Shown here in pieces: positions 12,165 to 29,997 of a stretch of 40,498 nt of DNA. How positions within the stretch are numbered: position 1 is the stretch's first letter; each line of letters begins with the position of its first letter. This DNA comes from Hadesarchaea archaeon (lineage in GTDB: Archaea > Hadarchaeota > Hadarchaeia > Hadarchaeales > Hadarchaeaceae). The notes under the pieces were generated by a model. It was not told where the DNA came from, did no database searches, and saw only the letters and a program-made list of their open reading frames with translations. The position numbers were made by a program, and so were the translations under genes. The stretch spans positions 1-40,498 of the forward strand of contig JAUWXQ010000001.1 in the NCBI GenBank assembly GCA_030616305.1. The letters are read 5' to 3'.

Positions 12165-12179
12165 ACCTGAATTTTAACT
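12165..12179. repeat. Left terminal inverted repeat of the island
   Basis: acctgaattttaact; its reverse complement agttaaaattcaggt matches agtgaaaattcaggt at 29983-29997 in 14 of 15 positions. Confidence 0.5.
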
Positions 12180-12195
12180 TTCCGCTTAGTCAGAG

Positions 12196-12981
12196 CTATG
12201 CTAGGTTAAAAGGCTGAGGTGGAGCCCAAACTTTGAATTTCTTCAAATATTCTTTTCTCAAATCCTCCACTTTTTCATCCAACGTCCCCGCTATCTCGCC
12301 GAACCTTTTTACAGTCTTGTCGCTCCCCAAAGAATTCACGATTTTTTTATGAAGTAAGTCAGAAATAGCGGTGGGGAACCTAACATCATATCCACCCCCA
12401 CCAAATTCTACGGGGCATTGTGCGAGAATATTTTTGACAGCTAGATCGTTGAATATAAATGACTCTAAGGGAATCTCCCTACCATCTATATTGACCAATA
12501 TACTGGGGCGTTTATGAAACTTCTCCAAGATTGCAGTGCAGTGCTCTTTAAAGCCTAGTTCCGCGCTTATAACCTGATGATTTTCCTTTGTGAATTCCTC
12601 AAAGACAATACGTGCTTTGGTCCTCAACTGATCTAGGCTTTTGCTGGTCTCCTCCTGATACTCGGACAAAGAGGAGATGAGCAAACTTGCTTTGTGGGAA
12701 AAAGTTCGGTAAAAAATTTTCTTTACGAACCACCTCTTTTCGAGTTCCCCAACTATCCTCTTCAAGGGGAATATCTCTATACCCATATCATAGCCTGCGG
12801 CATGAGCTCCAACACCAAACCTTTTTCTGAAAGAGTTCCAATTTTTAAGATACAATCCAAAAGATACGACATCATTTTCAACTTTATCAAGAAATGCTCT
12901 TTTTTCATCCACCAATGAGTAGAGAGCTGTAAACGAAGTAGCTATTGCCACTATTCCCATAATCAAAATTTCAATGCCCAT
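12196..12981 (-). CDS. N-terminally membrane-anchored hypothetical protein
   Basis: 261-aa ORF with TM segment MGIEILIMGIVAIATSFTALYSLV and a cytoplasmic helical domain. Last gene of the integrase-led minus-strand string. Confidence 0.55.
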   Translation of the reverse strand: MGIEILIMGIVAIATSFTALYSLVDEKRAFLDKVENDVVSFGLYLKNWNSFRKRFGVGAHAAGYDMGIEIFPLKRIVGELEKRWFVKKIFYRTFSHKASLLISSLSEYQEETSKSLDQLRTKARIVFEEFTKENHQVISAELGFKEHCTAILEKFHKRPSILVNIDGREIPLESFIFNDLAVKNILAQCPVEFGGGGYDVRFPTAISDLLHKKIVNSLGSDKTVKRFGEIAGTLDEKVEDLRKEYLKKFKVWAPPQPFNLA

Positions 12982-13021
12982 GAAACTCGCGCCTCGGAGT
13001 TAAGTTCTGGCCCGAGTGCTA

Positions 13022-13447
13022 CTAAGATTTTTGTGTTGTCCGCAAGTATCCGCCAGCCTTAACCGACATATGGATTAAAAGCCCGTACCTTTTCGTGAAG
13101 TCATACTGCTCTCGTGAGATGTATACTATATTGCAAACGGGTGTTGGGTTGCGAGTGTGAGTAGAAAAGCACTCTGGAGAGTCATGATACTCAATTCCCC
13201 CCACGCCAATGCGAGTCGCTGGAATGTGCCATTCAACGACCCGCCCGCCTTCTCTATTGAATTCGCCAAACAGCTTCGCCATTTCTTCTTTCAGCTCGCT
13301 TTCTTTGTCAACGGGTATCCTCGCCACCGCTTTCTCGATTACAACGTCCTCATCTCTTTCAAGCGCCTCTTTGGTCATCCTGAGCACGATATCCTTAGGA
13401 TTCTCGTTCGTCCACTCCCTACCACCATTAGAAAACAGTAAAGGCAT
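13022..13447 (-). CDS. Hypothetical protein
   Basis: 141-aa ORF starting 19 nt downstream of the integrase stop. No recognisable motif. Confidence 0.5.
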   Translation of the reverse strand: MPLLFSNGGREWTNENPKDIVLRMTKEALERDEDVVIEKAVARIPVDKESELKEEMAKLFGEFNREGGRVVEWHIPATRIGVGGIEYHDSPECFSTHTRNPTPVCNIVYISREQYDFTKRYGLLIHMSVKAGGYLRTTQKS

Positions 13448-13466
13448 TTATTTCACTTCTCTAACT

Positions 13467-14876
13467 TCATTTATCTTCTGGACTTAATAATTCTTTCCGC
13501 ATCATGTCCTTCAGCGCCCTGCTCAGGGCTTTCACCTGATCCTCCTCGTTCCCGACGATTGCTCGGTGGGGTTCGCTGAGTGCCTCCCGCGTCAGGACTT
13601 TCTCAGGGTCAAGCCCCCAAGCTCGAACTATCTCCTTAAGCGCTTCTATCTTTGAGAGGCTCGTTTTGGGTCTTATCGATAGTCCGGACGCAACGTAGAT
13701 ACCTCGAATGAACTCGATGCCTTTCATGTCGATGTCGTGGTAAGTCGAGATTGTGTGTCCCATCATGTACTCAATGTAATCGCGATCCACACCCAGAGCC
13801 GAGAGTTGAGTTCGAAAGAATTTGCGTATCGAGTGTGCTCTAAGCTTGTATCTCCTTCTGGAACTGCTTGATATTACCCCCGCTTTTCTGTAGAGCGCGT
13901 GGACTGTGTTGTAAATCTGTTTGGGCGTTACTGGTGTCACCTTCGCGCGATGCTTGTTCCTGATGATCGGGCTCTCATCGGTTATCACCTCAGGTGGGAT
14001 TCCCCTTACAACGACATATCCATCCGAGCAGTGGTACTCCCTCATGGTTCCGCGCCGCCTCGCGTCCAGATACGCTTTTATATACTCAACGGCTTCCCTG
14101 CCGAGAAATGTGTCGTAATCGTGATACTTTCCCTTGGTGATTTCGGCCTCCACGTGCACATGTATCGGTATTATCCCCTTTTCCAAGTCATCCCTGATGT
14201 GTCGGTACTTCAGCTTCGCCAGCGTGCCTATTCGAAACCCCCCAAGGGCCAAGCACAAGACTATGACTTTGTCCCTCAGGTCTGCGAGATCTATGACCTT
14301 TTGGAGTTCTTCAGGTTTCGGGGCCCTGTCCTCGTATTTGACTACCCTCCTGAGCTTGTACGGTAGCTTCGGCTCCAGTTTGTTAGTTGAGTAAAAGGTC
14401 TTCACCCCTTTGACGTAGGAGCTGATCGTGCATGGGGCAAGCCCATCTGCCTTTAGCCCTCCAATGAAATCGTCGATCAGCTTGGAGTGCTCTTCTATCT
14501 TTTTCAAGTTCGGCAGGCTGTCCGCATCCTTGCACTCTCGAATAAGGTCATCCGGCTCTCGCCCGGTCCACCTGCAGAACAGGCACACGCTCCACACATA
14601 GTTGCGTAGGGTGTATCGGCTTGAGGTCAACCCGCGCCTCAGGTATTTTGCCATCTCAAATAGGCTTTGGTTGCGACAGGCAAACGGTATCAAGTTTGGA
14701 GTATTCTCCAACAAACTTTCGATTATGTAGTTGTACACGTCTTCTTCCCCACGACCAATACCGGCGGGGAGTTCTATGGTGATGGGCTTGTTGAGCTTGT
14801 AGCCGTTTGAGCTGTGCGTCAGCTCCCGAATAGTCACTCCTTTTTCCTCGCTACAAACGCATTGTGCATTTTCCAT
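13467..14876 (-). CDS. Tyrosine recombinase / phage-type integrase
   Basis: ALGGFRIGTLAKL (Arg I), RAHSIRKFF (H-x-x-R), MGHTISTYH (His) and a downstream Tyr (IRGIY). N-terminal SAM-like core-binding region. Confidence 0.85.
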   Translation of the reverse strand: MENAQCVCSEEKGVTIRELTHSSNGYKLNKPITIELPAGIGRGEEDVYNYIIESLLENTPNLIPFACRNQSLFEMAKYLRRGLTSSRYTLRNYVWSVCLFCRWTGREPDDLIRECKDADSLPNLKKIEEHSKLIDDFIGGLKADGLAPCTISSYVKGVKTFYSTNKLEPKLPYKLRRVVKYEDRAPKPEELQKVIDLADLRDKVIVLCLALGGFRIGTLAKLKYRHIRDDLEKGIIPIHVHVEAEITKGKYHDYDTFLGREAVEYIKAYLDARRRGTMREYHCSDGYVVVRGIPPEVITDESPIIRNKHRAKVTPVTPKQIYNTVHALYRKAGVISSSSRRRYKLRAHSIRKFFRTQLSALGVDRDYIEYMMGHTISTYHDIDMKGIEFIRGIYVASGLSIRPKTSLSKIEALKEIVRAWGLDPEKVLTREALSEPHRAIVGNEEDQVKALSRALKDMMRKELLSPEDK

Positions 14877-14964
14877 TTTATCGCCTGTGTGCTAAAGCAT
14901 ACATACATAATTATGAGGAGAAGTATTTAAGCGTGCTGGCATAACAACATGCTGGTGTTTAAGC

Positions 14965-15105
14965 ATGGGACGGATGACAATCGAACTTCCGGACGAGCTG
15001 GATCGCGAGTTTCGGGTGAAAGTTGTAAAGGAATACGGGGGAAAGAAAGGGGCCCTCGGCGATGCCATCCAGGAAGCCGTTAAGCTGTGGTTAAAAAAGA
15101 AGTAA
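14965..15105 (+). CDS. Ribbon-helix-helix (CopG/Arc-type) small DNA-binding protein (not in the ORF track)
   Basis: Hand translation gives MGRMTIELPDELDREFRVKVVKEYGGKKGALGDAIQEAVKLWLKKK, a beta-strand plus two-helix pattern. Lies directly upstream of and divergent from the integrase. Confidence 0.6.
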   Translation: MGRMTIELPDELDREFRVKVVKEYGGKKGALGDAIQEAVKLWLKKK

Positions 15106-15112
15106 CTCATTA

Positions 15113-15406
15113 TCATACCCTACTCAGCTTGAGTATGTCGGGCCGCAGGACCACTAGGCCTGTCGTTCGCTGTTTTGCATTTTCTAATGGCTCTGTAAAT
15201 CTCTCCCACACAATTTTGATGTAATCGCTGTTTTCCTCGGCAAGCCACCCGACCGTTTCTCTCACGCATGGCCCATGGGGATCAGGATAAACATCTTTGA
15301 AGAGAACGTGGTCTTTGTAGCGAATATAAACAACATCACCGACTTTCAATCTGAATCCCAGTTGAGTAAAGGTAACCTTGCTGTTTGAGCTTTGTGAAAA
15401 TTCCAA
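15113..15406 (-). CDS. Hypothetical small protein
   Basis: 97-aa ORF, beta-rich (VGDVVYIRYKDHVLFKD). No family recognised. Confidence 0.45.
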   Translation of the reverse strand: MEFSQSSNSKVTFTQLGFRLKVGDVVYIRYKDHVLFKDVYPDPHGPCVRETVGWLAEENSDYIKIVWERFTEPLENAKQRTTGLVVLRPDILKLSRV

Positions 15407-15661
15407 TTTTTTGGAATTTTAGAAATCCTCAAGACTTCAAAAGTTGATTACTTTTTCAAGGGAGGAAAAACTCATGCTATTTAAAACCACGCGAAATCTT
15501 TTTAAGAAAAGGATGATTCGGTCAGCCTTGCCTGAGCGTATCATACTGACCATAAATATTTTTCGCAAACCTTTAAATAATCATCATACTCTCTGTGGTT
15601 TTCTGCGATTTTTTTCTTGGTGGAATTACTGCATCATACAAAACAGAATACGGGTGAAAAA

Positions 15662-16885
15662 ATGATAATGGATATGGAATACTATAAGGCTCTGGAGAAA
15701 GAAGTGGAGAAAGAATTGGACGAACTCTTCAGCGACGACGAAAAAGAACTGCCCGAGCCAGAGGATATTTCTAAAGAAGTTAGTGGAAACTCTGGTCACG
15801 GTTCCTCACCTGAAAAAACCGATGTTCCAAAACCTGACGAAAAAAGCGACCGAGGTGTTGCCATATACCTGCGGGTCAGCACCGACCGGCAGGCAGAACA
15901 CGGGTACAGCCTTCAGGACCAAGAGGAGAGGCTGAGAGAAGAGGCACGGAGGAGGGGTTTTGCCCGTCTCTACAAAGTCGAGGATGCGGGCGAGTCGGGG
16001 ACAAACTTTGAGAGGAAGGGGCTGAGCGAGATTCTCCAGCTGGCTACTGGAAGAAAGATAGACACGGTTCTCGTGACGAGCCTCGACAGGATAGGGAGAG
16101 ATCTGATTGAGTCCCTCCATTATGCCCGTATGCTCCGGGAACTCGGAGTCAAAATTGCGGCGATGAGCGGGGAGACCGACATAGCGACGGAGGAGGGCCT
16201 CATGTATGCAACGATACAATTCCTTTCGGCGGAGCTAGAAAACAAGAGGAGGACTAAAACCTCGATTGCGGGCAGAGTTCAGAGCTTCAAACAAAAGCAC
16301 TGGAACAAACCCGTACCAAAGGGATACCTGAAAAAAGCGGACGGCTGGATAGAAAAGGACCCACGATGGGAACAGGTCATCAAAGACGTGTTCAAACTAT
16401 TTTTAGAGACTGGGAACTACCAAACCGTAAAGCACGTGATAAACGAGGAGCACAAAGAAACCCTGCCAAAACCCCTGACGCGCCAGCAGGTAAGGCAGAT
16501 AATATGTGATCCGGTATATGTTGGCAGGCCCCAGTACTCTGGGAAAGCCTCGAAAAAGGAGTTTGGAAGGGACATCACCGTGGAGGATTTGGCCCTAGCA
16601 TATGTGGATCAGAACACTTTTGAACGGGCTCGGGAGATATCCAAAAAAATTAAAGAAAAATACTCCCGCGGAAAGGAAAATGTAATCAATGCAGGGGAGC
16701 TCGTTAAGAAGTTCGGATCTACAATCTTGGAGGAAATCCCGCACATCGCCGTCATGTGTCCAGAGTGCGGAGAGAGGATGGTTAGGAATGGCACGAAAAT
16801 ACTCGACGGTTGCATCGTTCAGAACTACCTCTGTAGAAGTTGTAACAGACAGTGGAGACCTTGCAAAGAATGGGTAGGTCGGTAA
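15662..16885 (+). CDS. Large serine recombinase (resolvase domain + recombinase domain + C-terminal zinc ribbon)
   Basis: VAIYLRVSTDRQAEHGYSLQDQ (catalytic Ser), SLDRIGRD, a recombinase-domain region, and CPECGERM...CRSCNRQW. ATG at 15662 preceded by GGGTGA; the ORF track starts at 15617. Confidence 0.85.
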   Translation: MIMDMEYYKALEKEVEKELDELFSDDEKELPEPEDISKEVSGNSGHGSSPEKTDVPKPDEKSDRGVAIYLRVSTDRQAEHGYSLQDQEERLREEARRRGFARLYKVEDAGESGTNFERKGLSEILQLATGRKIDTVLVTSLDRIGRDLIESLHYARMLRELGVKIAAMSGETDIATEEGLMYATIQFLSAELENKRRTKTSIAGRVQSFKQKHWNKPVPKGYLKKADGWIEKDPRWEQVIKDVFKLFLETGNYQTVKHVINEEHKETLPKPLTRQQVRQIICDPVYVGRPQYSGKASKKEFGRDITVEDLALAYVDQNTFERAREISKKIKEKYSRGKENVINAGELVKKFGSTILEEIPHIAVMCPECGERMVRNGTKILDGCIVQNYLCRSCNRQWRPCKEWVGR

Positions 16886-16909: not shown

Positions 16910-18400
16910 TTACGCCTTCCGAAGGCTTGTACAATTAGAAACAAGCCAGTCCTTCACGAACATCGCCGCTTTACAGTCGTCCTCGTTGTAGTTGACAATC
17001 TTCTGGAGTTTTGCCTTGTTTTTCTCTGGATCTTGGAGGTAACTGAGATAGTAGGCGATAGACTCTAGCGCAGTAACATCTTTGTGCCGCCATTGGAAAC
17101 CAAGACAGGTTGCCACCTCCTTCAGTCCGTTCCCGTAAGTTGGGAAAGCAAATGCAGTTGTGGCGTCCTTGTAAAGGTCCCTCATGTTGTCAAAAATCAT
17201 TTTTTCCGTTCTTACATCCATGCCATAGGTCTCAATAAGGCCCCTGAGGCGGGTTCGATCGTGATGGTGCCAGTGGTAAATGATGAAATCCTTTGCCTTC
17301 TGGACCCACTTCACGAATTGGTGGAACATCGCTTCCTCGTTGTCCAGAGTTTGAGCGAGGAAAGGGGTATAGGTGACCGTACTATTTTTCCTCACCAGAA
17401 CGCCTATGAGATAGTCTATGTCAATGAGTTGCGTGTCCCCAAGCTGTTGGCCGGTGTCCTCAAAGTCTAGGAAAATCTCCGTCCTCTTTGAGGGAAAATC
17501 CACCGATCCAATCTGGATTGGTTTTCCGCAGGCCAGGGCCTTTGCACATGTCACGAATTTGTTGGCGGTGGGCTTCCCGATACCGCGTATTTTTGCAAGG
17601 TCTGCCACTGATGCCGTAGCCAGATCCTGAACGGTTCTGTAGCCTACAGTGGCCAACCTCTCTTTGCGAGCAGGCCCAACGCCACTGACAAGCGAGACAT
17701 CACTACGCTTTTTCGCCTCCTCGTTACAGTAGGTTTCCCAAGGCCAATCGCAGGCACCGTATGTGGGTTCGACGGGTCTGCCACGCAAAATCTGTCTGAC
17801 CTCTTCAATGATATTCATCAACTTATTTTCATCATAAGGGCACTTGGAGACCACACCGTCCCGGTTGATCACGAAATAGGAGTTTGGCGTGAATCCTTGT
17901 ATCTTCCCCAGAAGATAGTTGTAGTAAGCCGTCGGTAGTAAGTGGTGATCTTTAATGTTTTTTGCTAACTTGACATCTTTTACCGTATAATGGTATCTGC
18001 CAAAAACCGAGGATGCAGACTTATCCTTCTCCAAGATGTCGGGAACGCCAAAGAGTCCCTCTGGTAAAAAGTAGAGTGGACCACCATGGATTGCCTTCAC
18101 GCCTTTCTTCATGCCCTCTAGAACCTTCCTAAAACCGTCCTTTGGATCCACGTATTCTAACGGGACCATCCCTGGATAAGCTTCCTTTACAACCGCCTCC
18201 TCGTGGTCTTTGGCCTGCGCAAACAGCATCTTGTGGAAATCTGTTATGGGGTCCTTCTTCTCCTCAGGAACAAAGTTTTCGCAATAGACTAAGAAAGGGG
18301 ATTTTACGTACTGATAGATAGTAGTTGCGGAAATCCTTATGTCAGTTTTCTCACCAAGGCACGACTCGTAGAGTTTTTGGATATCCATTTGTAATTCCAC
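16910..18400 (-). CDS. TM0106-family RecB-like nuclease (PD-(D/E)xK + HhH + RNase H-like exonuclease-like domain)
   Basis: GVPDILEK...YTVKDVKLAK (D...DxK) then YYNYLL. HhH repeats GVGPARKERL / IRGIGKPTANKF. IFLDFEDTG, YHWHHHDRTRL and YNEDDCKA resemble the C-terminal RNase H-fold module of this family. Confidence 0.75.
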   Translation of the reverse strand: MELQMDIQKLYESCLGEKTDIRISATTIYQYVKSPFLVYCENFVPEEKKDPITDFHKMLFAQAKDHEEAVVKEAYPGMVPLEYVDPKDGFRKVLEGMKKGVKAIHGGPLYFLPEGLFGVPDILEKDKSASSVFGRYHYTVKDVKLAKNIKDHHLLPTAYYNYLLGKIQGFTPNSYFVINRDGVVSKCPYDENKLMNIIEEVRQILRGRPVEPTYGACDWPWETYCNEEAKKRSDVSLVSGVGPARKERLATVGYRTVQDLATASVADLAKIRGIGKPTANKFVTCAKALACGKPIQIGSVDFPSKRTEIFLDFEDTGQQLGDTQLIDIDYLIGVLVRKNSTVTYTPFLAQTLDNEEAMFHQFVKWVQKAKDFIIYHWHHHDRTRLRGLIETYGMDVRTEKMIFDNMRDLYKDATTAFAFPTYGNGLKEVATCLGFQWRHKDVTALESIAYYLSYLQDPEKNKAKLQKIVNYNEDDCKAAMFVKDWLVSNCTSLRKA

Positions 18401-19401: not shown

Positions 19402-19596
19402 ATGAACTACCGCGAACTCAAGGAGCTTGCGAGGCGTGCCGATCGGGCAAAGGGTGAGGAGCGCAAGCGGTTAGTGGAGACGCTGATCCAAGAGCTACCC
19501 GCGCTGGACCCGTTTGAGGGTTGTGATGAATTCACGATTTGGCTTGCGAAACTGGTGGCGAGGGTGAAGTGGTATGACGCCCAAGGGCTATCCTGA
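19402..19596 (+). CDS. Small helical hypothetical protein whose 3' end carries repeat copy 1
   Basis: 64-aa ORF ending ...TIWLAKLVARVKWYDAQGLS. Confidence 0.4.
   Translation: MNYRELKELARRADRAKGEERKRLVETLIQELPALDPFEGCDEFTIWLAKLVARVKWYDAQGLS
19540..19572. repeat. 33-bp perfect direct repeat, copy 1
   Basis: tggcttgcgaaactggtggcgagggtgaagtgg, identical to 20213-20245. Confidence 0.9.
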
Positions 19597-20158: not shown

Positions 20159-20212
20159 GAATCGGACTTTCACCCATCAATCAGTTCGATGGCTTCAGCG
20201 AGGGGGCGGTGT

Positions 20213-20245: not shown

Positions 20246-20297
20246 TTGATGTTAGCGAGTTTAATTAGAGATTTAGATATAATTGAGGTCGGTAAAA

Positions 20298-22547: not shown

Positions 22548-22622
22548 GTGGCTCTATCCACTTTAGTGGTCCCCCGCAAGCTATAAAGTCTGTTTTTGCA
22601 ACAATTAGACTAGGTCGATAAA

Positions 22623-23159
22623 GTGCCCAGGGAAGAGACAATAGAAATTATTGTACGCAACAAAACCGCAACAGCGAGAATCAGAAAGTGGCACAGAAGA
22701 GACATAAAAATCTTGAGGAAAGCTCTTCATAATTGGGGTAATTTGGTAAAATTTTTGAAGAAATATGCAAGTCGCAGGACAAATCTTCCTGAACTCATTA
22801 GTGAGGCGTTGTTCTGTATTTATACTGGTTCTGTTCAAGTTTTGGACGTGAAGAATGTTGGCAAAGGGTTTGACTGTTATAACGAAAAAACCAAAAAAAC
22901 ACAGCAGATCAAAGGCTCTTCAAGAAGAGATTCGCCTTCCAGTTTTGGCCCGCATGAAAAATTTGATGAAGTGTATTGGGTTGTAATCGAGGAAACAAAT
23001 AGTAGGTTCAAATTTGAAATTTATAAATTGTCAAAGAAAAGCGTTGTAACTCATCCAAGTTTCCGGCCACTTGCTCGGGAGGGCAGAAGACCAAGATTTC
23101 TTCTCTTGGATATCGTTAGGGACAAAAAGCTAAGGCCCATAGCAAAAGGATACATCTAG
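22623..23159 (+). CDS. Small PD-(D/E)xK-like protein, candidate cognate type II restriction endonuclease
   Basis: ELISEALFCIYTG...KGFDCYNEKTKKTQQIKGSS...SSFGP. Convergent with the C5-methyltransferase and 3 nt from it. GTG start. Confidence 0.5.
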   Translation: MPREETIEIIVRNKTATARIRKWHRRDIKILRKALHNWGNLVKFLKKYASRRTNLPELISEALFCIYTGSVQVLDVKNVGKGFDCYNEKTKKTQQIKGSSRRDSPSSFGPHEKFDEVYWVVIEETNSRFKFEIYKLSKKSVVTHPSFRPLAREGRRPRFLLLDIVRDKKLRPIAKGYI

Positions 23160-23162
23160 ATT

Positions 23163-24557
23163 TCATTTGCACCGGTTTAGGGTATCTTTAACCAGCAAAG
23201 CTATGGTTTTGCTGGCAAGGGGAGGAACAGCTTCACCTATCTGCCTGCGCACTTCTGAAGGACTGCCCTTGAAAAGAAAATCGTCGGGGAACGTTTGAAT
23301 CCTCGCCCTCTCCCTATTTGTTAATTTTTGTCTATCTCTTCTGTAGTGATAGCCCCAAGTCCCCCCGCCACCCCTGGCTATGATCGTTGGCGACGGCTTC
23401 AGCGGGTGAATTCGGCGGTATATGTTGCTCATGAGCCCCGTTACTTCGTGCGAGGTTCCTCTCACGAACTCGTGGTTTTCTCCAGGCGGAATAAAGCCCA
23501 TCCTTTTTTTAATGGCTTCTTTTTCGTTGAGTATCTGGTGGGTGTTGTCTTCCAAGACTAAATCGTTAACAGGCTTCTTCCAGTAGCCCGATTCTTTTAG
23601 AACTTCTTCGTGTTTTTTCATGACATCTTCTTTTATTTTTTCGTTGATGGAAGTCGAAAGGCCGTTCACAAAAAGGTAGTCGTGCCATATCTCGAGCCTG
23701 TATTTGCTCCACACGTTTGGGAAATACTGATTGCTTCTAATAGACGATATTTTTTCTGATATATCGCCATATTCTCTCATTAGTTCTTTATAGTCTTCTT
23801 CCAGCTGATCAAGCGTTTTTCCTGAAAATACTTCAATGGGCGTAATGGGGAATGAACAAAGTAAATTTGGCCCCAGCAACTCCTCGCTTATCTTTTGTTC
23901 CAGTCCCAGCAAATCAAATTTTTTTGCCATGTCTTTTCTTATCCCGATTATTATAATCCGCTCTCTCTGCTGGGGCGCCCCAAGCTTGGAAAAGTTGGCA
24001 ACGGAAGAGAATAATAATTTGTAGCTCTCCTGCCCGTTATTGTTTTTTGCTGTTTCAACGGATTTCCTGTGGTTTTTCCACATCTCGCGCCAGCTTAAGT
24101 TAAGGTTTTCGAAGTCCTCAACAATTTTTCTAAAGGCTAGGCCACCGTTTACAGAAGTGAGACCTTTCACATTCTCGAAAACGAACATCTTTGGCTGTAG
24201 GGCGACCAAGGCACGCACAAAATGGACATAGAGCCTGCCTCTTTTTACACCGATTCCTTTCCGCTTTTCGGAGCCCCTGATCAAAGAAAAATCCTGGCAG
24301 GGCGGACCGCCGGTAACCACATCTATTTCTTTAGAGCACAAGCTAGAAAAATCGACTTGCTCCACATCGCCGGTAAAAAAACTGCCTTCGGTGGCCTTGG
24401 GATCCTGTGTAATTTTCAATCCAAATCTGCCCGAAAAAGTCTCGGCAGAGGGGCGATACAAGTCGTTGGCCCAAACGACCCTGAACTTTTCTGTGAGTTC
24501 AAACCCCAAGTCGAGGCCACCACATCCGCTGAACAGAGAAACTATGTTGAATTTCAT
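23163..24557 (-). CDS. DNA (cytosine-5)-methyltransferase
   Basis: Motif I SLFSGCGGLDLGF, motif IV GGPPCQDFS, motif VI ENVKGL, motif VIII QQRERIIIIG, motifs IX/X TFPDDF...RRQIGEAVPP. Long variable region between motifs VIII and IX. Confidence 0.9.
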   Translation of the reverse strand: MKFNIVSLFSGCGGLDLGFELTEKFRVVWANDLYRPSAETFSGRFGLKITQDPKATEGSFFTGDVEQVDFSSLCSKEIDVVTGGPPCQDFSLIRGSEKRKGIGVKRGRLYVHFVRALVALQPKMFVFENVKGLTSVNGGLAFRKIVEDFENLNLSWREMWKNHRKSVETAKNNNGQESYKLLFSSVANFSKLGAPQQRERIIIIGIRKDMAKKFDLLGLEQKISEELLGPNLLCSFPITPIEVFSGKTLDQLEEDYKELMREYGDISEKISSIRSNQYFPNVWSKYRLEIWHDYLFVNGLSTSINEKIKEDVMKKHEEVLKESGYWKKPVNDLVLEDNTHQILNEKEAIKKRMGFIPPGENHEFVRGTSHEVTGLMSNIYRRIHPLKPSPTIIARGGGGTWGYHYRRDRQKLTNRERARIQTFPDDFLFKGSPSEVRRQIGEAVPPLASKTIALLVKDTLNRCK

Positions 24558-24617: not shown

Positions 24618-24884
24618 TTATTTGACTATCTCCCATCCGGACTTTTTGTTGCAGTAGATAAGGAACTCCTTTTGCATGACGTTTTGCACGCATCTGAGCC
24701 TGTGCTTCCATTCTGGCTGGTGCGTGGGGGTCACTGCATAGTGAGTACATTTCTCGTGGTCGTTGCAGTACCCCGGACATCTCTTTTTGATAATTTTGTA
24801 AAGTTGAGGCGTTGTTTTGGGGCTGTCTCGGAGGGCCCTTAATATCTCCCCCCTGAACCGCTTGGTTCGTTTGTTCATGTGCAC
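24618..24884 (-). CDS. Small winged-helix protein (Mrr_N-like wHTH) with a Cys/His cluster
   Basis: RGEILRALRDSPKTTPQLYKIIKK...EWKHRLRCVQNVMQKEFLI...KSGWEI resembles Mrr N-terminal-type wHTH. CPGYCNDHEKCTH insert. Lies between the recombinase and the methyltransferase. Confidence 0.5.
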   Translation of the reverse strand: MHMNKRTKRFRGEILRALRDSPKTTPQLYKIIKKRCPGYCNDHEKCTHYAVTPTHQPEWKHRLRCVQNVMQKEFLIYCNKKSGWEIVK

Positions 24885-25942
24885 ACCAACGACTCTTTTT
24901 GCTTGTTGGTAAAACCACTTTTGGTGAAGGGCCCATATGACCGCGTGAGAGGGGGCGCCGTAAGTCGTTTTCCTTGATTACCTCCCTCTGCCTCCTTTAG
25001 AAGCTCAAAGTACTCATTGAATATTCTGTCTATTTTCGCCTTCCTCCTGTCATCGGGCATCGGCGACCTCTTGGCTCCGCCGTCCTTGAACCTGTGCATA
25101 GTTTTGGTCGCCTTCTCGAAAAGCTCGTCTTTAATGATCCTACACTCCTCAATAACATCATCGACACCGGCAACTCTATAGGCTCCGGTGTAAAGCTCGT
25201 TAGCTAATACGTCCCTCACGGCTCTGGAATTCCACGGTTTGCCTTTTTTCGTCAAAATGTTCTCTTTGTTAAGCTCGAAAGCGACCTGATCAATCGACCT
25301 GTTTTTTACATACCTTTTGAAGATCCGCCGGACGAGCCTGGCCTCTTTCTTGTTTACCTTGAGTCCCCCATCTTCCGTCTTGTCGTAACCCAGCGGAGGG
25401 TGATCGTTTGGCCATTTGTGTTGTTTTGCGAGCGCGAACATCCCCATCCTCGCCCTCTCTCCGATCAGCTCACGCTCGAGTTCGGCCACCGACGCCAGAT
25501 TCCTGTAGTTGAACCTTCCCACCGAGGTCGTAGTGTCTATATACTCAGTGACGCTACAGAGCCCCACCCCCCACTCGCGGAGCTGTCTTTCCACATTCAC
25601 GAGGTCCACAAGCGACCGACAGAACCTATCGAGTTTCCAAAAGATGATCACATCAAATGCCCCTGCTTTGGCCCGCTCCAGCATCATCTGGAACTTCGGC
25701 CTTTCGATAGTTCCCCCGCTCACGCCGTCCTCCTTGAACACGTAGCTCGCTCTCCATCCTTTCTTGTCGCAGTAGTCCCAGCACCGCCTGATTTGCTCCT
25801 CCATGCTGTAGCCGAACCTCTGGTTTGGGGAGGAGGTTCTCGCGTAGATGGCGGCGAGCACTGCGTTTTTCTCGTCTCTTTTGTTTTCAGTTCTGGTAAA
25901 TATTGCAGTACAAATTTCCTGCTCAGCTTTAGCTCCGGCCAT
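24875..25942 (-). CDS. Serine recombinase (resolvase catalytic domain + recombinase domain)
   Basis: AAIYARTSSPNQRFGYSMEEQ (catalytic Ser), KLDRFCRS, PLGYDK...ARLVRRIFKRY. ATG at 25942 preceded by GGAGAGAGG; the track starts at 25969. Confidence 0.85.
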   Translation of the reverse strand: MAGAKAEQEICTAIFTRTENKRDEKNAVLAAIYARTSSPNQRFGYSMEEQIRRCWDYCDKKGWRASYVFKEDGVSGGTIERPKFQMMLERAKAGAFDVIIFWKLDRFCRSLVDLVNVERQLREWGVGLCSVTEYIDTTTSVGRFNYRNLASVAELERELIGERARMGMFALAKQHKWPNDHPPLGYDKTEDGGLKVNKKEARLVRRIFKRYVKNRSIDQVAFELNKENILTKKGKPWNSRAVRDVLANELYTGAYRVAGVDDVIEECRIIKDELFEKATKTMHRFKDGGAKRSPMPDDRRKAKIDRIFNEYFELLKEAEGGNQGKRLTAPPLTRSYGPFTKSGFTNKQKESLVCT

Positions 25943-26533
25943 TCCTCTCTCCTGTATGCTTAAGCACACAAGAGTGTATATGCTAAAGAGTATTTAAATG
26001 TTTTATAATTGTCCGTAACCAAAATCCCAAGGTGAACCCCCCACTACCACTGCAGCAGCTCCAAGGGGGCCTGAGAAACGGCAACAAGATGTTTGAGTTA
26101 AACATAGCTCCCCCCACATCGCTTGCGAAGTTGAATAACGCCCCCACAAAGAGGAGCATAGAAAATCCACATTCGTTTCAGTGTTGCCCTCACAGAAGAT
26201 ACTGATAAGAAAGGAAGCATTAAAAACATTAAGACATTGTGTTATTAATGTTGTTACATGAAGTTGCGCAGGGGGTTATCAAAGGAAATTGGAGGATTTA
26301 TGGTGGATGAAGAAATCAAGAAATGGGCAGAAAATGCTGAAAAAGGAATTGAACTGGGAAAACCTGCCTATATTGTGAAAAGCGATATTACCTCCAACAG
26401 TTCAAACAAACGAACTCACACATCGATGAAAGTTATTCCAACGTCGCACCCTACCCGCTTGAGATGCTCCATGAGATTTAAAGGCAAATCGCTCCCAACT
26501 TCCAAATTTGCAAATTGAGAGGTGCGAGGGAGT

Positions 26534-27298
26534 ATGAGTGAGATAATCAAAAAAGTGAGAAAGCGTGACGGTAGCATAGTCGACTTCGATCAAGAGCAGA
26601 TAACCAATGCCATCTTCAAAGCCGCCATCGAGGTCGGGGGGGGGCGAAACAGGAGGATCGTGGAAAGGCTGTCTGATGAGGTCGTCAGAGTTTTGGAGGA
26701 AAAATACGCGGGCACGATCCCGGGAGTCAAGGACATTCAGGATGTCATTGAAACGGTCCTGATTGAGCATGGCCACGCGAGGACAGCGAAAGCTTTCATC
26801 CTCTACCGAACAAGAGAATCCCAAATGTTGTCACTGGGTGCAGATAAACCCAAAGTATTTGTGGTTTATGGGCATAATCGAGATACTCTTTCTAAGTTAG
26901 AATTAACGCTTCGCCAAATAGGGGCTGAACCACTGATTTTTAATCAATTACCTACATCCGGTTCTCAAACAATTATTGAAATATTAGAAGAGAATATCCC
27001 GAAAGCTGACGCAATAGTGGTTCTACTAACACCTGACGACGAGGGCAGGAAACGGAACAGCGATGCAAAACTGGAACCTCGAGCCCGCCAGAATACTTTA
27101 ATAGAAGCAGGTTATGCTGTGATTTCGCAGCGTAAGAAAAGTATCCTAATTTCTCTTGGTGGTGTAAAAATTCCAACTGACTTTGATGGCATCTATAAAG
27201 TAGAAGATTTGCAGTGGTCTGATACAGTTGCTTTTCATGTTGCAAAGCGTTTACAAAATATGGGACTAAAGGTTGATCCAACAAAAGCTATTAGATAA
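26534..27298 (+). CDS. ATP-cone domain fused to a TIR-like (Cap12/PycTIR-type) effector domain
   Basis: N-terminus: IIKKVRKRDGSIVDFDQEQITNAIFKA...DIQDVIETVLIEHGHARTAKAFILYRTRE, ATP-cone as in NrdD/NrdR. C-terminus: KVFVVYGHNRD, VVLLTPDDEG, PRARQNTLIEAGYA and KIPTDFDGIY match the family described as predicted nucleotide-binding protein containing TIR-like domain. ATG at 26534 after GAGGTG/GGGAG; the track starts at GTG 26522. Confidence 0.75.
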   Translation: MSEIIKKVRKRDGSIVDFDQEQITNAIFKAAIEVGGGRNRRIVERLSDEVVRVLEEKYAGTIPGVKDIQDVIETVLIEHGHARTAKAFILYRTRESQMLSLGADKPKVFVVYGHNRDTLSKLELTLRQIGAEPLIFNQLPTSGSQTIIEILEENIPKADAIVVLLTPDDEGRKRNSDAKLEPRARQNTLIEAGYAVISQRKKSILISLGGVKIPTDFDGIYKVEDLQWSDTVAFHVAKRLQNMGLKVDPTKAIR

Positions 27299-27772: not shown

Positions 27773-28129
27773 ATGGCGATCGACTTGGGAGGAAGCCGAC
27801 AAATGCGAATAAACCATATCGCGACTTGCAATCGGGTGAAGCTAGAGCTTTTGAAAGCGTCGAAGGGCAAACTATTTTCAATCAGTGCCCTTGCTGAAAA
27901 AACAGGGTTTGATTGGCACACAGTGAAAAAATGTATCGAGGAAGACATAGGAGAAGAGTTGGATGGGCGGTTGTCCAGAACCACTACAAATGGACAGGAG
28001 ATATTTTTCGTGGAGCCACTGGCCTGTGACGTGTTGTCTAGAGCCGAACAAAAAGCAAAAGAAGAACGGAAGTTAGGGCTGGCAGAAGAGATAGGATCTG
28101 TACGGGGGAGATACTGCTCGGTATCGTAG
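27773..28129 (+). CDS. Winged-helix/HTH-like DNA-binding protein
   Basis: 118-aa ORF. KGKLFSISALAEKTGFDWHTVKKCIEE looks like an HTH. Charged C-terminal helix. Confidence 0.5.
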   Translation: MAIDLGGSRQMRINHIATCNRVKLELLKASKGKLFSISALAEKTGFDWHTVKKCIEEDIGEELDGRLSRTTTNGQEIFFVEPLACDVLSRAEQKAKEERKLGLAEEIGSVRGRYCSVS

Positions 28130-28130
28130 A

Positions 28131-28439
28131 GTGATAACTTTTACGGAGGTGTTTGAGGTGAAGTCATACAGAAGACAAGTTGAGAGTATACCTGATGGTG
28201 ACACCTTTGAAATATACAGAAGGATTCAAGGTTCAAACAAAATTAGATTAGCCAATGTCGATGCGCCGGCAGGAAATACGAGATCTGGCAAAAAGGCAAC
28301 GAATACTCTAAAAGGGATGATAGAGGACAGAACCGTAACCATAAGGCCCGTTGCGAGAGACCGATACGGCAGAATTGTGGCGGAAGTGTTTGCGGATCGA
28401 AAAAACGTAAATCGGAGAATGAGAGAAAAAGGATACTAA
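28131..28439 (+). CDS. Staphylococcal-nuclease (SNase/thermonuclease)-like domain protein, minimal size
   Basis: IPDGDTFEI...KIRLANVDAPAGNTRSGKKATNTLKGMI...RDRYGRIVAEVF...VNRRMREKGY is collinear with the SNase core. DAPE reads DAPA here. GTG start 1 nt after the upstream stop. Confidence 0.65.
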   Translation: MITFTEVFEVKSYRRQVESIPDGDTFEIYRRIQGSNKIRLANVDAPAGNTRSGKKATNTLKGMIEDRTVTIRPVARDRYGRIVAEVFADRKNVNRRMREKGY

Positions 28440-28485
28440 ACGAAGAGGATAAATACTTTCCTTACTTATTTTTTAATGTGTCCAT

Positions 28486-29166
28486 GTGATCGTCTCGTGC
28501 AGAATATTTAAACTGGAAAAAGTTTATCCGCTAAAAGAACTGCAAAAAAAGCTCCGAAAAAAAGGAATTATAGAGAAAGTTAGATTCAAAACGAATGGGA
28601 GGATTTTAAAATTACTTACTTTTATTGATGATGTTATTATGAAAGAAAATGATCTTCATGGATCGGTTAGTTATGAATCCCCTTTGCCAATTTTGCAGGC
28701 AGACGGTACAATAGAATGGGTTAAAGAGGCAATCAAAGTTAAGTTTGTTTTTGCTCCCTTTGGGAATTCAATATTTTTTATCCCATTCGGTTCGAACGCA
28801 GAGAGTGCGGCGACAAAGATGAATAACGCAATTTTTAAGGCCGATACGATCCTGAAGCAAGCATTTTCATCGGATATGATTGAAAGGTTCCTGAGTCAAA
28901 ACCCACATATATGGAAGAGTGGCAGGTGGGCTGGGCTCAATATACCAGGCATTTCAAAAGCGGCTTTAGCGGGCGCAGACTTATTGCGATCACCGGACTC
29001 TAGGAGGTATGACGTACATGGACACAAGAGCTTCGCTCTTGTAACATTAAAAGAAAATGGGTGGACGATAGGACTAAGCCAAAAAGGAGTAGTCGTTTTT
29101 TATTCCGAAGTAAGCAAAGAAGAGATATTACAATTTGTAAAAAGTAAGATCTTTTCTCTGCTGTAA
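28486..29166 (+). CDS. Hypothetical protein (start uncertain)
   Basis: 226-aa ORF from a GTG, same strand as the wHTH and SNase-like genes. No motif recognised. Confidence 0.45.
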   Translation: MIVSCRIFKLEKVYPLKELQKKLRKKGIIEKVRFKTNGRILKLLTFIDDVIMKENDLHGSVSYESPLPILQADGTIEWVKEAIKVKFVFAPFGNSIFFIPFGSNAESAATKMNNAIFKADTILKQAFSSDMIERFLSQNPHIWKSGRWAGLNIPGISKAALAGADLLRSPDSRRYDVHGHKSFALVTLKENGWTIGLSQKGVVVFYSEVSKEEILQFVKSKIFSLL

Positions 29167-29184
29167 AAACATTAATTATCGACA

Positions 29185-29883
29185 TTAAAGGTATACTGTG
29201 ATCATCTTTCGCAATATTGATGCGACATTTTGGTCTATGTTACCATAAGCTATTATTTTATCTCCAAATAGGTCAATCGAGTACTTATCTTCAATTTTCG
29301 CGGCGAGGGAGCTTAACTCAAGTCCGGATAAGACTCCTGTTAACTCATATATGTTTTTCAGCTCACAAACCAGACTTCTTTTCTCAAACTTTGCGTCCTT
29401 AATAACCTTTCTTAGACATTCTTCTATCTTCTCCGCCGCCGTTACCAAGTCTAAAATGTGGCCAACAAATTCTTTGTATCCACATAACGCTGTAAGATTC
29501 GCATCTATTCCTGAAATAATTACTTTATCTCCCATAGGTTCGAAAGCAAGCATGACTTCAGCATCTATCTCAGTTTTACCGCTTTCGAAATTAAATTTAA
29601 AATCCTCCCCCCGAGGCTCTAATTCGAAACCTTCGTTTTTTAGCTCCTTTTTAATAGACTCCTTAATTTCATTAAGAATTAAATTCTCATCGGTCAAATC
29701 ATTTGTTTTAGTCGTTAAAATCGTTTTGATATGCGGATTTCTAATGATTTTACTAAGCCATTTTTTGCGGTACTTTATTCTAAATCGCAATTCCGGGCCA
29801 GCAAAAAGTTCAACGAGTACATACACTACAAAAGAGATAATTATCCCAGTTGCAATCACTATCAAAATTTCAGAAATTCCCAT
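29185..29883 (-). CDS. N-terminally membrane-anchored hypothetical protein
   Basis: 232-aa ORF with TM segment MGISEILIVIATGIIISFVVYVLV and a cytoplasmic mixed alpha/beta domain. Last gene before the right island end. Confidence 0.55.
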   Translation of the reverse strand: MGISEILIVIATGIIISFVVYVLVELFAGPELRFRIKYRKKWLSKIIRNPHIKTILTTKTNDLTDENLILNEIKESIKKELKNEGFELEPRGEDFKFNFESGKTEIDAEVMLAFEPMGDKVIISGIDANLTALCGYKEFVGHILDLVTAAEKIEECLRKVIKDAKFEKRSLVCELKNIYELTGVLSGLELSSLAAKIEDKYSIDLFGDKIIAYGNIDQNVASILRKMITVYL

Positions 29884-29982
29884 TTTTATCCTCTCTCATA
29901 TTGTATGTCGCATAAATACATTAATTGCTTTTCAAGGGAGAAGGCACTTTTTTCTCCTTTGACGCATTCTATAGGCTTAATC

Positions 29983-29997
29983 AGTGAAAATTCAGGT
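29983..29997. repeat. Right terminal inverted repeat of the island
   Basis: agtgaaaattcaggt; see 12165-12179. Confidence 0.5.

What the first reader, a model, noticed from the sequence alone, without database searches (positions are those of the whole stretch)
12165..29997. About 17.8-kb AT-rich island with 14/15-nt terminal inverted repeats appears to split a prepilin-like operon
Seen in the sequence:
- The + strand prepilin-like gene ends at 12150.
- The next + strand prepilin-like genes begin near 30058.
- Everything between is compositionally different (by eye clearly more AT-rich) and carries recombinases and defence cargo.
- In the intergenic DNA at the two edges, acctgaattttaact (12165-12179) is the reverse complement, with one mismatch, of agtgaaaattcaggt (29983-29997).

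Inverted rather than direct terminal repeats are what the P and P' half-sites of a large-serine-recombinase attP would leave at attL and attR. The island encodes two serine recombinases. Removing the island would leave about 70 bp between the pilin genes.

I also see gcttagtcag (12184-12193) and gcttaatcag (29975-29984) as a weak direct match.
Basis: partly seen in the sequence, partly recalled or inferred. Interest (0 to 1): 0.6.

Follow-up and report, generated by a model that had tools for sequence, protein, structure and literature searches.

The report
Mobile defence island splitting archaeal pilin gene
A 17.9-kb mobile island carrying anti-virus genes has inserted precisely into the end of a pilin-like gene of a Hadarchaeota archaeon; it belongs to a previously unremarked family of archaeal islands that each carry one tyrosine and two serine recombinases.

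Summary

**Insertion.** Four related Hadarchaeota contigs have the 119-aa pilin-like gene directly followed by the 30058 gene, so the site is empty there. The island is not in intergenic DNA. It sits inside the last codons of the pilin-like gene, between two copies of CCCATG (12144-12149 and 30013-30018). The displaced gene end survives at 30017-30046.

**Inverted repeat.** Each arm lies exactly 15 nt inside a junction.

**Sister islands.**
- Two further islands sit at the same codon in other genomes.
- A related island sits 4 kb downstream in the same operon of another genome.
- Two of the three, with both ends in hand, show the same layout: a 7-bp core, 13-15 nt of spacer, then a 13-16 nt inverted arm. 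The third has only its pilin-side end, which matches.

**Backbone.** These islands share two serine recombinases (LSR1 and LSR2), a 64-aa gene and a tyrosine integrase, around variable defence cargo.

**Which enzyme.** The target site follows the tyrosine-integrase type. It does not follow serine-recombinase relatedness: LSR1 proteins 88% identical sit at different sites. This is inference.

**Earlier scan notes.** Notes from other genomes describe bacterial pilin genes hit by serine-integrase islands.

The parts
11791..12150 (+). Pilin-like host gene, truncated by the insertion (119 aa; the restored form would be 128 aa)
   Evidence: ORF. Homologues in L002, L003, L005 and Ga0315309 continue with W-E-G-Q-V-A-V-G-stop. 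There is no Pfam or NCBIfam hit, so 'pilin-like' rests on the hydrophobic N-terminus and on the DUF7284 neighbour.
12144..12149 (.). attL copy of the 6-bp core CCCATG (crossover region)
   Evidence: It is identical to 30013-30018. Relatives with an empty site hold a single copy, CCCGTG or CCCCTG.
12150..12164 (.). P' inner spacer ATAAAGTGGGAACTT. It supplies in-frame stops (TGA TAA) and holds the conserved TAAAG.
   Evidence: TAAAG directly follows the core in all four islands with a known pilin-side end: WIN, Z2680, Z17 and Ga.
12165..12179 (.).
   Evidence: 14/15 inverted match to 29983-29997. It lies 15 nt from the core, the same offset as the right arm. It matches the Z2680 arm at 13/15 positions and the Z17 arm at 10/15.
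12196..12981 (-). 261-aa protein of unknown function (hydrophobic N-terminus by eye)
   Evidence: ORF. No Pfam, PHROG or NCBIfam hit. Not related to the 232-aa end protein.
13022..13447 (-). 141-aa protein of unknown function
   Evidence: ORF. No family hit.
13467..14876 (-). Type-A tyrosine integrase, the favoured integrase of the island
   Evidence: PF00589, E=1.9e-11. R215, H348-x-x-R351 and Y379 are invariant in alignment A1, and H374 is conserved in 6 of 7 sequences. It is 67-69% identical to the integrases of Z17 and Z2680, which sit at the same site. Homologues in viral contigs abut tRNA genes.
14892..15406 (-). Two small genes (74 aa and 97 aa) upstream of and co-oriented with the integrase; candidate accessory factors
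   Evidence: The 97-aa gene is conserved next to the integrase in 5 IMG/VR contigs and in L050 and L052. Comparable to the SNJ2 Orf2/Orf3-Int operon (PMC5861418). The accessory role is inferred.
15617..16885 (+). LSR1: serine recombinase with Resolvase and Recombinase domains and a short 4-Cys C-terminus
   Evidence: PF00239 7.5e-26 and PF07508 4.3e-8. About 25 close homologues. In six sister islands it lies directly upstream of a tyrosine integrase. It is inverted here relative to that order.
16910..18400 (-). 496-aa Cas4/RecB-like + HhH + RNase-H-like nuclease (cargo)
   Evidence: PF13482 and PF14520. Weak PADLOC Cas4 hit.
19402..19596 (+). 64-aa backbone gene of unknown function
   Evidence: 61-72% identical copies in the Ga0315309 and WJOW islands. 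No Pfam hit.
19679..20681 (+). DUF6998 / methyl-directed REase-like gene and a GIY-YIG gene (cargo)
   Evidence: Pfam. PADLOC mREase_II, 1.2e-13.
20798..24557 (.). HhH-GPD glycosylase, a 347-aa protein, a Bsp6I-like REase and a C5 DNA methyltransferase: a type II R-M module (cargo)
   Evidence: Pfam. PADLOC REase_II, 7.6e-16. HhH-GPD plus MTase also lie next to LSR2 in Z17.
24875..25969 (-). LSR2: serine recombinase with Resolvase and Recombinase domains and no zinc ribbon
   Evidence: PF00239 2.1e-34 and PF07508 1.8e-16. More than 1000 homologues of about 305-330 aa at 60-74% identity; the few that carry a source name are from Hadesarchaea, Bathyarchaeia and Odinarchaeia.
26522..27298 (+). 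ATP-cone fused to a CAP12/PycTIR-type TIR domain (candidate defence gene PDC-S35)
   Evidence: Pfam. PADLOC PDC-S35, 3.4e-33.
27773..29883 (.). 118-aa protein, SNase-like 102-aa protein, 226-aa protein (+ strand) and a 232-aa protein (- strand)
   Evidence: PF00565. The 118-aa + SNase pair is about 62% identical to L052 3682-4348. The others have no hit.
29983..29997 (.).
29998..30012 (.). P inner spacer CCAAACATGCTTTTC (GCTTT is the inverted partner of AAAG)
30013..30018 (.). attR copy of the core CCCATG
30017..30046 (+). Displaced 3' end of the pilin-like gene (W-E-A-Q-A-A-V-E-R-stop)
   Evidence: The joined flanks give one open frame that aligns colinearly with three relatives.
30058..33997 (+). 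Downstream genes of the operon (136, 141, 146, 223 and 668 aa)
   Evidence: ORFs. DUF7284 hit on the 223-aa protein. Syntenic in L002, L003, L005, Ga0315309 and Z17.

Best explanation
Window 12150-30012 is a 17,863-bp integrative mobile element of the 'cryptic integrated element / defence island' kind.

**How it got there.** It entered a Hadarchaeota chromosome by conservative site-specific recombination between a dyad-symmetric attP and the codons I-P-W near the 3' end of a pilin-like gene. The exchange took place within the shared CCCATG.

**What it did to the host.**
- The insertion cuts off the last nine codons of the gene.
- The island supplies an immediate stop codon.
- It places 17.9 kb between the gene and the rest of its operon.

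**The repeats.** Each lies 15 nt from the core. They are most likely recombinase-binding sites.

**The enzyme.** I infer that the type-A tyrosine integrase (13467-14876) made the insertion, perhaps helped by the two small upstream genes.

**The serine recombinases.** LSR1 and LSR2 are conserved backbone genes of this island family. Their role here is unknown. Candidates are multimer resolution, inversion or module shuffling.

**Shown versus inferred.**
- Shown: the insertion, its exact junctions, the symmetric arms, the recurrence at the same codon and the shared backbone.
- Inferred: which enzyme acts, and whether the island can still excise.
For: **Empty sites.** L002, L003, L005 and Ga0315309 have the pilin-like gene directly followed by the next gene. 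The joined window flanks align colinearly with three of them and restore one open frame.

**Independent insertions at the same codon.**
- Z17 and Z2680 carry islands at the same codon.
- The window's host is closer to the empty-site genomes (p141 78-86% identical) than to Z17 (50%).
- The short Z2680 flank closely resembles the flanks of L003 and L005 by eye.

**Common geometry.** WIN has a 6-bp core and Z17 and Ga each have a 7-bp core. Each is followed by 13-15 nt of spacer and then a 13-16 nt inverted arm. The arms sit at equal offsets from both junctions, and at most 0.2% of shuffles match this.

**Evidence for the tyrosine integrase.**
- All three islands at the pilin site carry type-A integrases (67-92% identical). 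The island at the other site (Ga) carries an unrelated type B.
- Arm spacing is 36 bp in the two type-A islands with both ends known (WIN, Z17) and 33 bp in type B.
- LSR1 similarity ignores the site. Z2680 and WJOW are 88% identical but sit at different sites. Z17 and Z2680 share a site at only 51%.
- LSR2 of Z17 is closer to Ga's (78%) than to the window's (71%).
- The integrase gene ends 22 nt from the arm in Z17. Its stop codon lies inside the arm in Ga.
- The catalytic R, HxxR and Y are intact.
- Viral homologues of the type-A integrase abut tRNA genes in two contigs.
- Identical cores of 6-7 bp fit the overlap region that tyrosine recombinases need (review PMC8371274).

**Precedent.** Archaeal elements are known that insert into 3' ends of protein genes with short att sites and bring a new stop codon (PMC6563490).
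Against: - No excised circle or empty-site read was seen. The tools for sequencing runs and genomes were closed.
- Pattern scans for an intact attP found none in viral contigs. The 23 hits in metagenome contigs were all unrelated hairpins.
- In the window the integrase lies 1.3 kb from attL, with two genes in between.
- The arms lie 15 nt from the core, which is further out than the core-type sites of well-studied tyrosine recombinases.
- The inner motif GCTTT...TAAAGC is shared between Z17 (type A) and Ga (type B), whose integrases are unrelated. That points to a conserved factor such as LSR1 or LSR2.
- Within type A, arm and spacer similarity does not track integrase identity. WIN and Z2680 arms match 13/15 at 69% integrase identity, while Z17 and Z2680 match 10/15 at 92%.
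- A fourth type-A integrase locus (L050, 62-66% identical) has no pilin gene nearby.
- The sample is small: three insertions at the pilin site and one at the other site.
Confidence: 0.6

Rival explanations
1. One reading: a serine recombinase of the island made the insertion. This could be LSR1 alone, or LSR1 plus LSR2 acting as a Ccr-like pair. The inverted repeats would be the outer motifs of the P and P' half-sites, and exchange would occur at a central dinucleotide inside CCCATG.
For: - attP is dyad-symmetric with arms 33-36 bp apart, and the dyad axis falls on C|A of CCCATG. From memory, this resembles Bxb1 and phiC31 attP sites, which have outer inverted motifs.
- LSR1, LSR2 and the inner GCTTT/AAAGC dyad are the features conserved across islands whose tyrosine integrases are unrelated.
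- The best NCBIfam matches are XisF and CcrA/B/C, which are element-excision recombinases. SCC elements also insert at the 3' end of a gene with short direct repeats and terminal inverted repeats.
- LSR1 always lies in the att-proximal operon.
Against: - There is no PF13408 zinc-ribbon/coiled-coil in either protein. LSR2 has no zinc ribbon at all.
- NCBIfam scores are far below the cut-offs (99 against 375; 138 against 900).
- The genes lie 3.5 and 4 kb from the island ends.
- LSR1 proteins that are 88% identical sit at different sites, while islands at the same site have LSR1 only 43-57% identical.
- Cores of 6-7 identical bp in three of three islands are more than the 2 bp a serine recombinase needs.
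Confidence: 0.2
2. A two-enzyme module. The LSR1-then-tyrosine-integrase operon acts on a composite att site: inner conserved dyad for the serine enzyme, outer arms for the tyrosine enzyme. One enzyme would integrate and the other would excise, resolve or set direction.
For: - LSR1 lies directly upstream of a tyrosine integrase in six islands, across two unrelated integrase families. The genes overlap by 1 nt in WJOW and ERR.
- The att site has two layers. The outer arms differ between integrase types. The inner motif is conserved across types.
Against: - I know of no precedent and found none in the papers read.
- The window's own island has broken the operon, because LSR1 is inverted away from the integrase, yet its att sites look intact.
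- The inner motif is short. Part of it (TAA) could be conserved simply as a stop codon.
Confidence: 0.12
3. A transposon with about 30-bp imperfect terminal inverted repeats and a 6-bp target-site duplication, moved by an unrecognised transposase.
For: - The termini ATAAAG...ACCTGAATTTTAACT and its inverted partner match at 19/30 positions.
- CCCATG is duplicated at both ends.
Against: - No DDE, Cas1 or other transposase domain was found in any island ORF.
- Three insertions at the very same codon in different genomes point to site-specific recombination.
- The duplicated length varies: 6 bp in the window and 7 bp in Z17 and Ga.
Confidence: 0.03

Closest known systems
Archaeal cryptic integrated elements with non-suicidal (pNOB8-type) tyrosine integrases, as catalogued in Thaumarchaeota (Krupovic et al. 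2019, PMC6563490)
   Same: - The integrase gene is left intact by integration.
- The att repeats are short.
- Insertion is into the 3'-distal part of a protein-coding gene, and the element brings a new stop codon.
- Borders were verified by empty sites in relatives.
- Most cargo is of unknown or defence function.
   Different: - The host phylum is Hadarchaeota.
- Two serine recombinases are conserved alongside the integrase.
- Inverted arms of 13-16 nt are set 13-15 nt from the core.
- A pilus operon is used repeatedly as the target.
SNJ2-type integrase operon of haloarchaeal pleolipoviruses (Wang et al. 2018, PMC5861418)
   Same: A tyrosine integrase is co-transcribed with two small genes. 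Here a 97-aa and a 74-aa gene precede the integrase, and the 97-aa gene is conserved in viral relatives.
   Different: - SNJ2 targets tRNA-Met with a 14-bp core.
- No sequence relationship was shown.
- The accessory role of the small genes here is untested.
Large serine integrases (phiC31, Bxb1, TP901-1, A118) and their attP sites
   Same: - The catalytic domain is closest to that of TP901-1 integrase, and a Recombinase domain is present.
- attP is dyad-symmetric with outer inverted motifs (comparison from memory).
   Different: - There is no zinc-ribbon/coiled-coil domain.
- The proteins are short, about 310 and 420-495 aa.
- The genes are not next to the att site in the window.
- The target does not follow these proteins.
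SCCmec and its CcrA/CcrB recombinase pair
   Same: - There are two LSR-type recombinases on one island.
- Insertion is at the 3' end of a chromosomal gene.
- There are short direct repeats and inverted repeats at the ends.
- CcrB is the best NCBIfam hit for LSR2.
   Different: - The scores are far below the family cut-offs.
- The two genes lie 8 kb apart, not in an operon.
- The host is an archaeon.
- A tyrosine integrase is also present and better explains the choice of site.

Membership tests
Integrative element moved by a tyrosine integrase (non-suicidal, pNOB8-like class) | Tyrosine recombinase with catalytic R...HxxR...Y | tested here: met
   PF00589 hit. R215, H348, R351 and Y379 are invariant in alignment A1.
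Integrative element moved by a tyrosine integrase (non-suicidal, pNOB8-like class) | Direct repeat (att core) at both junctions, with a single copy at empty sites | tested here: met
   CCCATG at 12144-12149 and 30013-30018. One copy in L002, L003, L005 and Ga0315309.
Integrative element moved by a tyrosine integrase (non-suicidal, pNOB8-like class) | Integrase gene not split by integration | tested here: met
   The 469-aa ORF is intact and full-length against its homologues.
Integrative element moved by a tyrosine integrase (non-suicidal, pNOB8-like class) | Target site co-varies with the integrase lineage | tested here: met
   Three type-A islands sit at the pilin codon and the type-B island sits elsewhere. 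The sample is small, and L050 (62-66% identical) is not at a pilin gene.
Integrative element moved by a tyrosine integrase (non-suicidal, pNOB8-like class) | Excision to a circle carrying attP and a restored attB | not testable with these tools
attP pattern scans found nothing relevant.
Large serine integrase (phiC31/Bxb1 type) element | Resolvase catalytic domain plus Recombinase domain | tested here: met
   PF00239 and PF07508 in both proteins.
Large serine integrase (phiC31/Bxb1 type) element | Zinc-ribbon domain with embedded coiled-coil (PF13408) | tested here: not met
   No PF13408 hit in LSR1, LSR2 or their close homologues, although distant bacterial hits carry it. LSR1 has only a short 4-Cys motif.
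Large serine integrase (phiC31/Bxb1 type) element | Integrase gene adjacent to attP, and target that follows the integrase lineage | tested here: not met
   The genes lie 3.5 and 4 kb from the ends. LSR1 at 88% identity sits at different sites, and islands at the same site have LSR1 at 43-57% identity.
Large serine integrase (phiC31/Bxb1 type) element | Dyad-symmetric attP with a 2-bp central crossover | tested here: inconclusive
   The dyad is present and its axis falls on C|A. The cleavage positions are unknown.
SCC-like element with a Ccr recombinase pair | Proteins reach the CcrA/CcrB family thresholds and are encoded as an adjacent pair | tested here: not met
   Scores of 72-138 bits against cut-offs of 700-900. 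The genes are 8 kb apart.
TIR/TSD transposon or casposon | DDE transposase or Cas1 encoded in the element | tested here: not met
   None found by Pfam or PHROGs across the island ORFs.
Defence island cargo | Recognised anti-virus systems | tested here: met
   Type II REase with C5 MTase, an mREase-like gene and PDC-S35 (ATP-cone + TIR). These are family matches, and function was not tested.

The most novel reading that the evidence does not exclude
The conserved pairing of LSR1 directly upstream of a tyrosine integrase is a two-enzyme integration/excision module. It would act on one composite attachment site, with the serine enzyme reading the inner GCTTT/AAAGC dyad and the tyrosine enzyme reading the outer arms. 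One recombinase family would then set direction for, or reverse, the reaction of the other. These islands may also preferentially disrupt a pilus operon, which could be a virus receptor, while delivering defence genes.
Probability: 0.12. Interest if true: 0.8.

Novelty: new variant of a known kind. Interest (0 to 1): 0.48.

Why it matters
**State of knowledge.** A 2021 review states that archaeal serine recombinases have been seen only in transposons and were 'never fully investigated' (PMC8371274).

**What this locus offers.**
- It provides base-exact att sites with occupied and empty alleles.
- Together with six sister islands, it defines a modular archaeal island family with a recurring three-recombinase backbone.
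- A direct bench test of which enzyme does what is now possible.

**Possible wider interest.**
- The recombinases come from poorly sampled archaeal phyla and might have novel specificities.
- Four islands interrupt the same pilus operon while bringing restriction-modification and TIR-type defence genes. Loss of a surface filament and gain of defence may be linked. That link is speculation.

Tried and rejected
**Searches that found nothing useful**
- Exact-protein look-up of the 119-aa gene: not on record.
- The Logan contig L001 starts at window 30385 and misses the junction.
- A pattern scan for an intact attP (arm, 26-46 nt, arm) gave 0 hits in viral contigs. It gave 23 hits in metagenome contigs. 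All were unrelated hairpins with no island genes nearby.
- LSR1 and LSR2 have no relatives in IMG/VR.
- A profile scan of viral contigs added only one more integrase locus.

**Ideas tested and dropped**
- The two end proteins (261 aa and 232 aa) are not homologues.
- No att pair could be defined for the WJOW island. The DAOW, ERR and L050 islands have only one end, or none, in hand.
- No convincing attP-like dyad lies downstream of the integrase in the viral contigs.
- No Omega-like small gene lies upstream of LSR2 in the window, unlike in the sister islands.
- Similarity between attB and the attP arms in Ga0315309 (a 7-mer and a 9/10 match) is within chance by a rough count.

Full report
**1. 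What is in the window**

The window comes from a Hadarchaeota (Hadesarchaea) genome. The closest public contigs are labelled Hadesarchaea, Hodarchaeaceae and Hadarchaeota.

- The + strand ORF 11791-12150 (119 aa) has a hydrophobic N-terminus.
- From ATG 30058 a run of + strand genes follows (136, 141, 146, 223 and 668 aa).
- One of these, the 223-aa protein, hits DUF7284. The others hit nothing.
- 'Pilin-like' is therefore plausible but rests on N-terminal shape and context.

Between them lie about 25 ORFs:
- a tyrosine integrase (13467-14876, - strand);
- two Resolvase+Recombinase-domain proteins, LSR1 (15617-16885) and LSR2 (24875-25969);
- a Cas4/RecB-like nuclease;
- a methyl-directed REase-like gene;
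- a GIY-YIG gene;
- an HhH-GPD glycosylase;
- a Bsp6I-like REase with a C5 methyltransferase;
- an ATP-cone/TIR protein matching the candidate defence family PDC-S35;
- an SNase-like protein.

No viral structural genes, replication genes or transposase genes were recognised.

**2. The observation**

- The 14/15 inverted repeat is real. Only 0.05% of shuffles of the two short edge stretches reach it. The window holds no other close copy.
- GC is 0.451 in the island, 0.545 to the right and 0.502 to the left. The compositional contrast is therefore clear on one side only.
- The weak direct match GCTTAGTCAG/GCTTAATCAG is at chance level, with 12.5% of shuffles reaching it.

**3. Empty sites and exact junctions**

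A scan with the 668-aa protein found contigs L002, L003 and L005. They are 73-82% identical in DNA over the operon. In each, the pilin-like gene is directly followed by the homologue of the 30058 gene.

At base level the relatives read ...GGCTACATCCCGTGGGAAGGGCAGGTCGCGGTGGGGTAG, then 7 nt, then ATG.
- The window's left side follows this up to ...GGCTACATCCCATG and then departs.
- The right side rejoins at CCCATGGGAAGCC...TAG.
- The island therefore lies between two copies of CCCATG (12144-12149 and 30013-30018), inside the gene's last codons.
- The displaced end (W-E-A-Q-A-A-V-E-R-stop) sits at 30017-30046.
- Joining 12149 to 30019 restores a 128-codon frame that aligns colinearly with the relatives. 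It leaves 11 nt before ATG 30058.

The reconstructed attP is AGTGAAAATTCAGGT, then 15 nt, CCCATG, 15 nt, then ACCTGAATTTTAACT.

**4. A family of islands**

Homologues of LSR2 are very numerous. There are more than 1000, of about 305-330 aa and 60-74% identical; the few that carry a source name are from Hadesarchaea, Bathyarchaeia and Odinarchaeia. Homologues of LSR1 are few, about 25. Their contigs show a recurring layout: LSR2, then variable cargo, then LSR1, then a tyrosine integrase, then host DNA. The cargo includes R-M systems, HATPase proteins and HhH-GPD. This layout was seen in:
- WJOW01000002 (Hadesarchaea);
- Ga0315309_1000550;
- ZHAO22 scaffold_17 (Z17);
- ZHAO22 scaffold_2680 (Z2680);
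- DAOWGS010000069;
- an ERR15087765 contig.

A 64-aa gene (window 19402-19596) is also shared with two of these islands, Ga0315309 and WJOW.

Three of these islands are informative about sites:

- **Ga0315309.** The contig is syntenic with the window's flanks. Its pilin site is empty, which makes a fourth empty allele. Its own 14-kb island sits in the 3' part of the homologue of the window's 668-aa gene. That island lies between two copies of CTGGGGG. The arms ACCTCCCACTATCAGA and TCTGATAGTGGGATGT each lie 13 nt inside.
- **Z17.** A 24-kb island sits at exactly the window's codon. The left end reads GGCTACATCCCGTGG, TAAAGCTCGCACTT, ACCCGACTTTTTA. The right end reads TAAAAAGTCGGGT, TTATCGCAGCTTTCC, CCCGTGG. 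The arms match 13/13 and are 36 bp apart, as in the window.
- **Z2680.** This island is at the same codon with nearly the window's sequence: GGCTACATCCCGTG, ATAAAGTAGGAACTT, ACCTGTATTTTTACT. Only the pilin-side end is on the contig.

In the three islands with both ends in hand, the best inverted match within the terminal 60 nt lies at equal offsets from the two junctions. At most 0.2% of shuffles match this.

Host proteins place the window nearer to the empty-site genomes than to Z17. The short Z2680 flank closely resembles those of L003 and L005 by eye. The occupied sites therefore reflect separate insertions rather than one inherited event.

**5. Which recombinase**

Inverted half-sites at attL and attR are expected for both recombinase families, so the repeat alone does not decide. 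The comparative data favour the tyrosine integrase:

- **Integrase type follows the site.** The three islands at the pilin codon have type-A integrases (67-92% identical). Ga, WJOW, DAOW and ERR have an unrelated type B (42-71% identical among themselves). Ga is at another site, and WJOW, DAOW and ERR have no pilus genes nearby.
- **LSR1 cuts across this.** Z2680 and WJOW are 88% identical, and Z17 and DAOW 76%. The same-site islands share only 43-57%.
- **LSR2 also cuts across it.** LSR2 of Z17 is nearer to Ga's than to the window's.
- **Spacing.** Arm spacing is 36 bp in the two type-A islands with both ends known (WIN, Z17) and 33 bp in type B.
- **Position.** The integrase is the gene nearest the att site. 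It ends 22 nt away in Z17, and its stop codon lies inside the arm in Ga.
- **Integrity.** Its catalytic residues are intact.
- **Relatives.** Homologues in viral contigs lack LSRs and abut tRNA genes in two contigs.
- **Core length.** Cores of 6-7 identical bp fit the overlap region of tyrosine recombinases.
- **LSR domains.** Neither LSR has the zinc-ribbon/coiled-coil domain typical of phage serine integrases.

Points against the tyrosine integrase:
- The arms lie further from the core than classical core-type sites.
- The inner motif GCTTT...TAAAGC is shared by Z17 (type A) and Ga (type B).
- Within type A, site similarity does not follow integrase identity.
- In the window the integrase is 1.3 kb from attL.
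- The sample is small.

I put the tyrosine integrase at about 0.6, a serine recombinase at about 0.2, and a cooperative two-enzyme module at about 0.12.

**6. Comparison with known systems**

- The closest described kind is the archaeal 'cryptic integrated element'. It has a non-suicidal tyrosine integrase, a short att site and insertion into the 3'-distal part of a protein gene, and it brings a new stop codon (PMC6563490).
- The integrase preceded by small genes recalls the SNJ2 operon (PMC5861418).
- The differences are the conserved pair of serine recombinases, the LSR1-integrase operon found across two unrelated integrase families, the set-back inverted arms and the repeated hits on one pilus operon.
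- A 2021 review says archaeal serine recombinases were seen only in transposons and never investigated. I found no paper describing this island family. A limited search cannot exclude one.

**7. Verdict**

This is a real, precisely bounded integrative defence island. The mechanism is partly right: the repeats are attP half-site arms. I rate it a new variant of a known kind, of moderate interest.

**Limits.** No read-level test of excision or whole-genome census was possible.

Noticed in passing
window 9874-11730: The 618-aa beta-helix/NosD-like gene between the GIY-YIG gene and the pilin-like gene is absent from L002 and L003. Z17 has three oxidoreductase genes at that spot instead. This is a second variable locus right beside the island's target.
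   Followed up: partly
window 19535-19577 and 20207-20249: A 43-nt direct repeat (91% identical) brackets the DUF6998/mREase-like gene, giving a cassette-like layout inside the island.
   Followed up: no
window 15089-16885; L052 7091-9234: LSR1 is inverted in the window relative to the order LSR1, small gene, integrase, att seen in six sister islands. Z2680 has two copies of the 97-aa-like gene flanking LSR1 in opposite orientation. Recombination between such copies could have inverted the segment.
   Followed up: partly
window 12148-12153; Z17, Z2680 and Ga0315309 left junctions: Every island places an in-frame stop (TGA TAA, or TAA) immediately after the core, through a conserved TAAAG. The truncated host gene therefore always ends at the junction.
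   Followed up: partly
window 19402-19596; WJOW merged 15018-15200 and 28741-28956: A 64-aa gene of unknown function is conserved at 61-72% identity in the Ga0315309 and WJOW islands. It occurs twice on the WJOW contig, which suggests tandem or neighbouring islands there.
   Followed up: no
L039 9751-9888, L036 9764-9901: A 45-aa ribbon-helix-helix (Omega-repressor-like) gene is transcribed divergently from LSR2 in sister islands. This recalls the resolvase/omega pairing of inc18 plasmids. No counterpart was found upstream of LSR2 in the window.
   Followed up: partly
window 6469-6546: A tRNA-Gly(TCC) gene lies in a lower-GC stretch (2.5-12 kb) left of the island. I did not examine whether another element sits there.
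   Followed up: no
L008 and L011, 8688-11248: Two IMG/VR contigs carry two tandem type-A tyrosine integrase genes, 45-48% identical to the window's.
   Followed up: no
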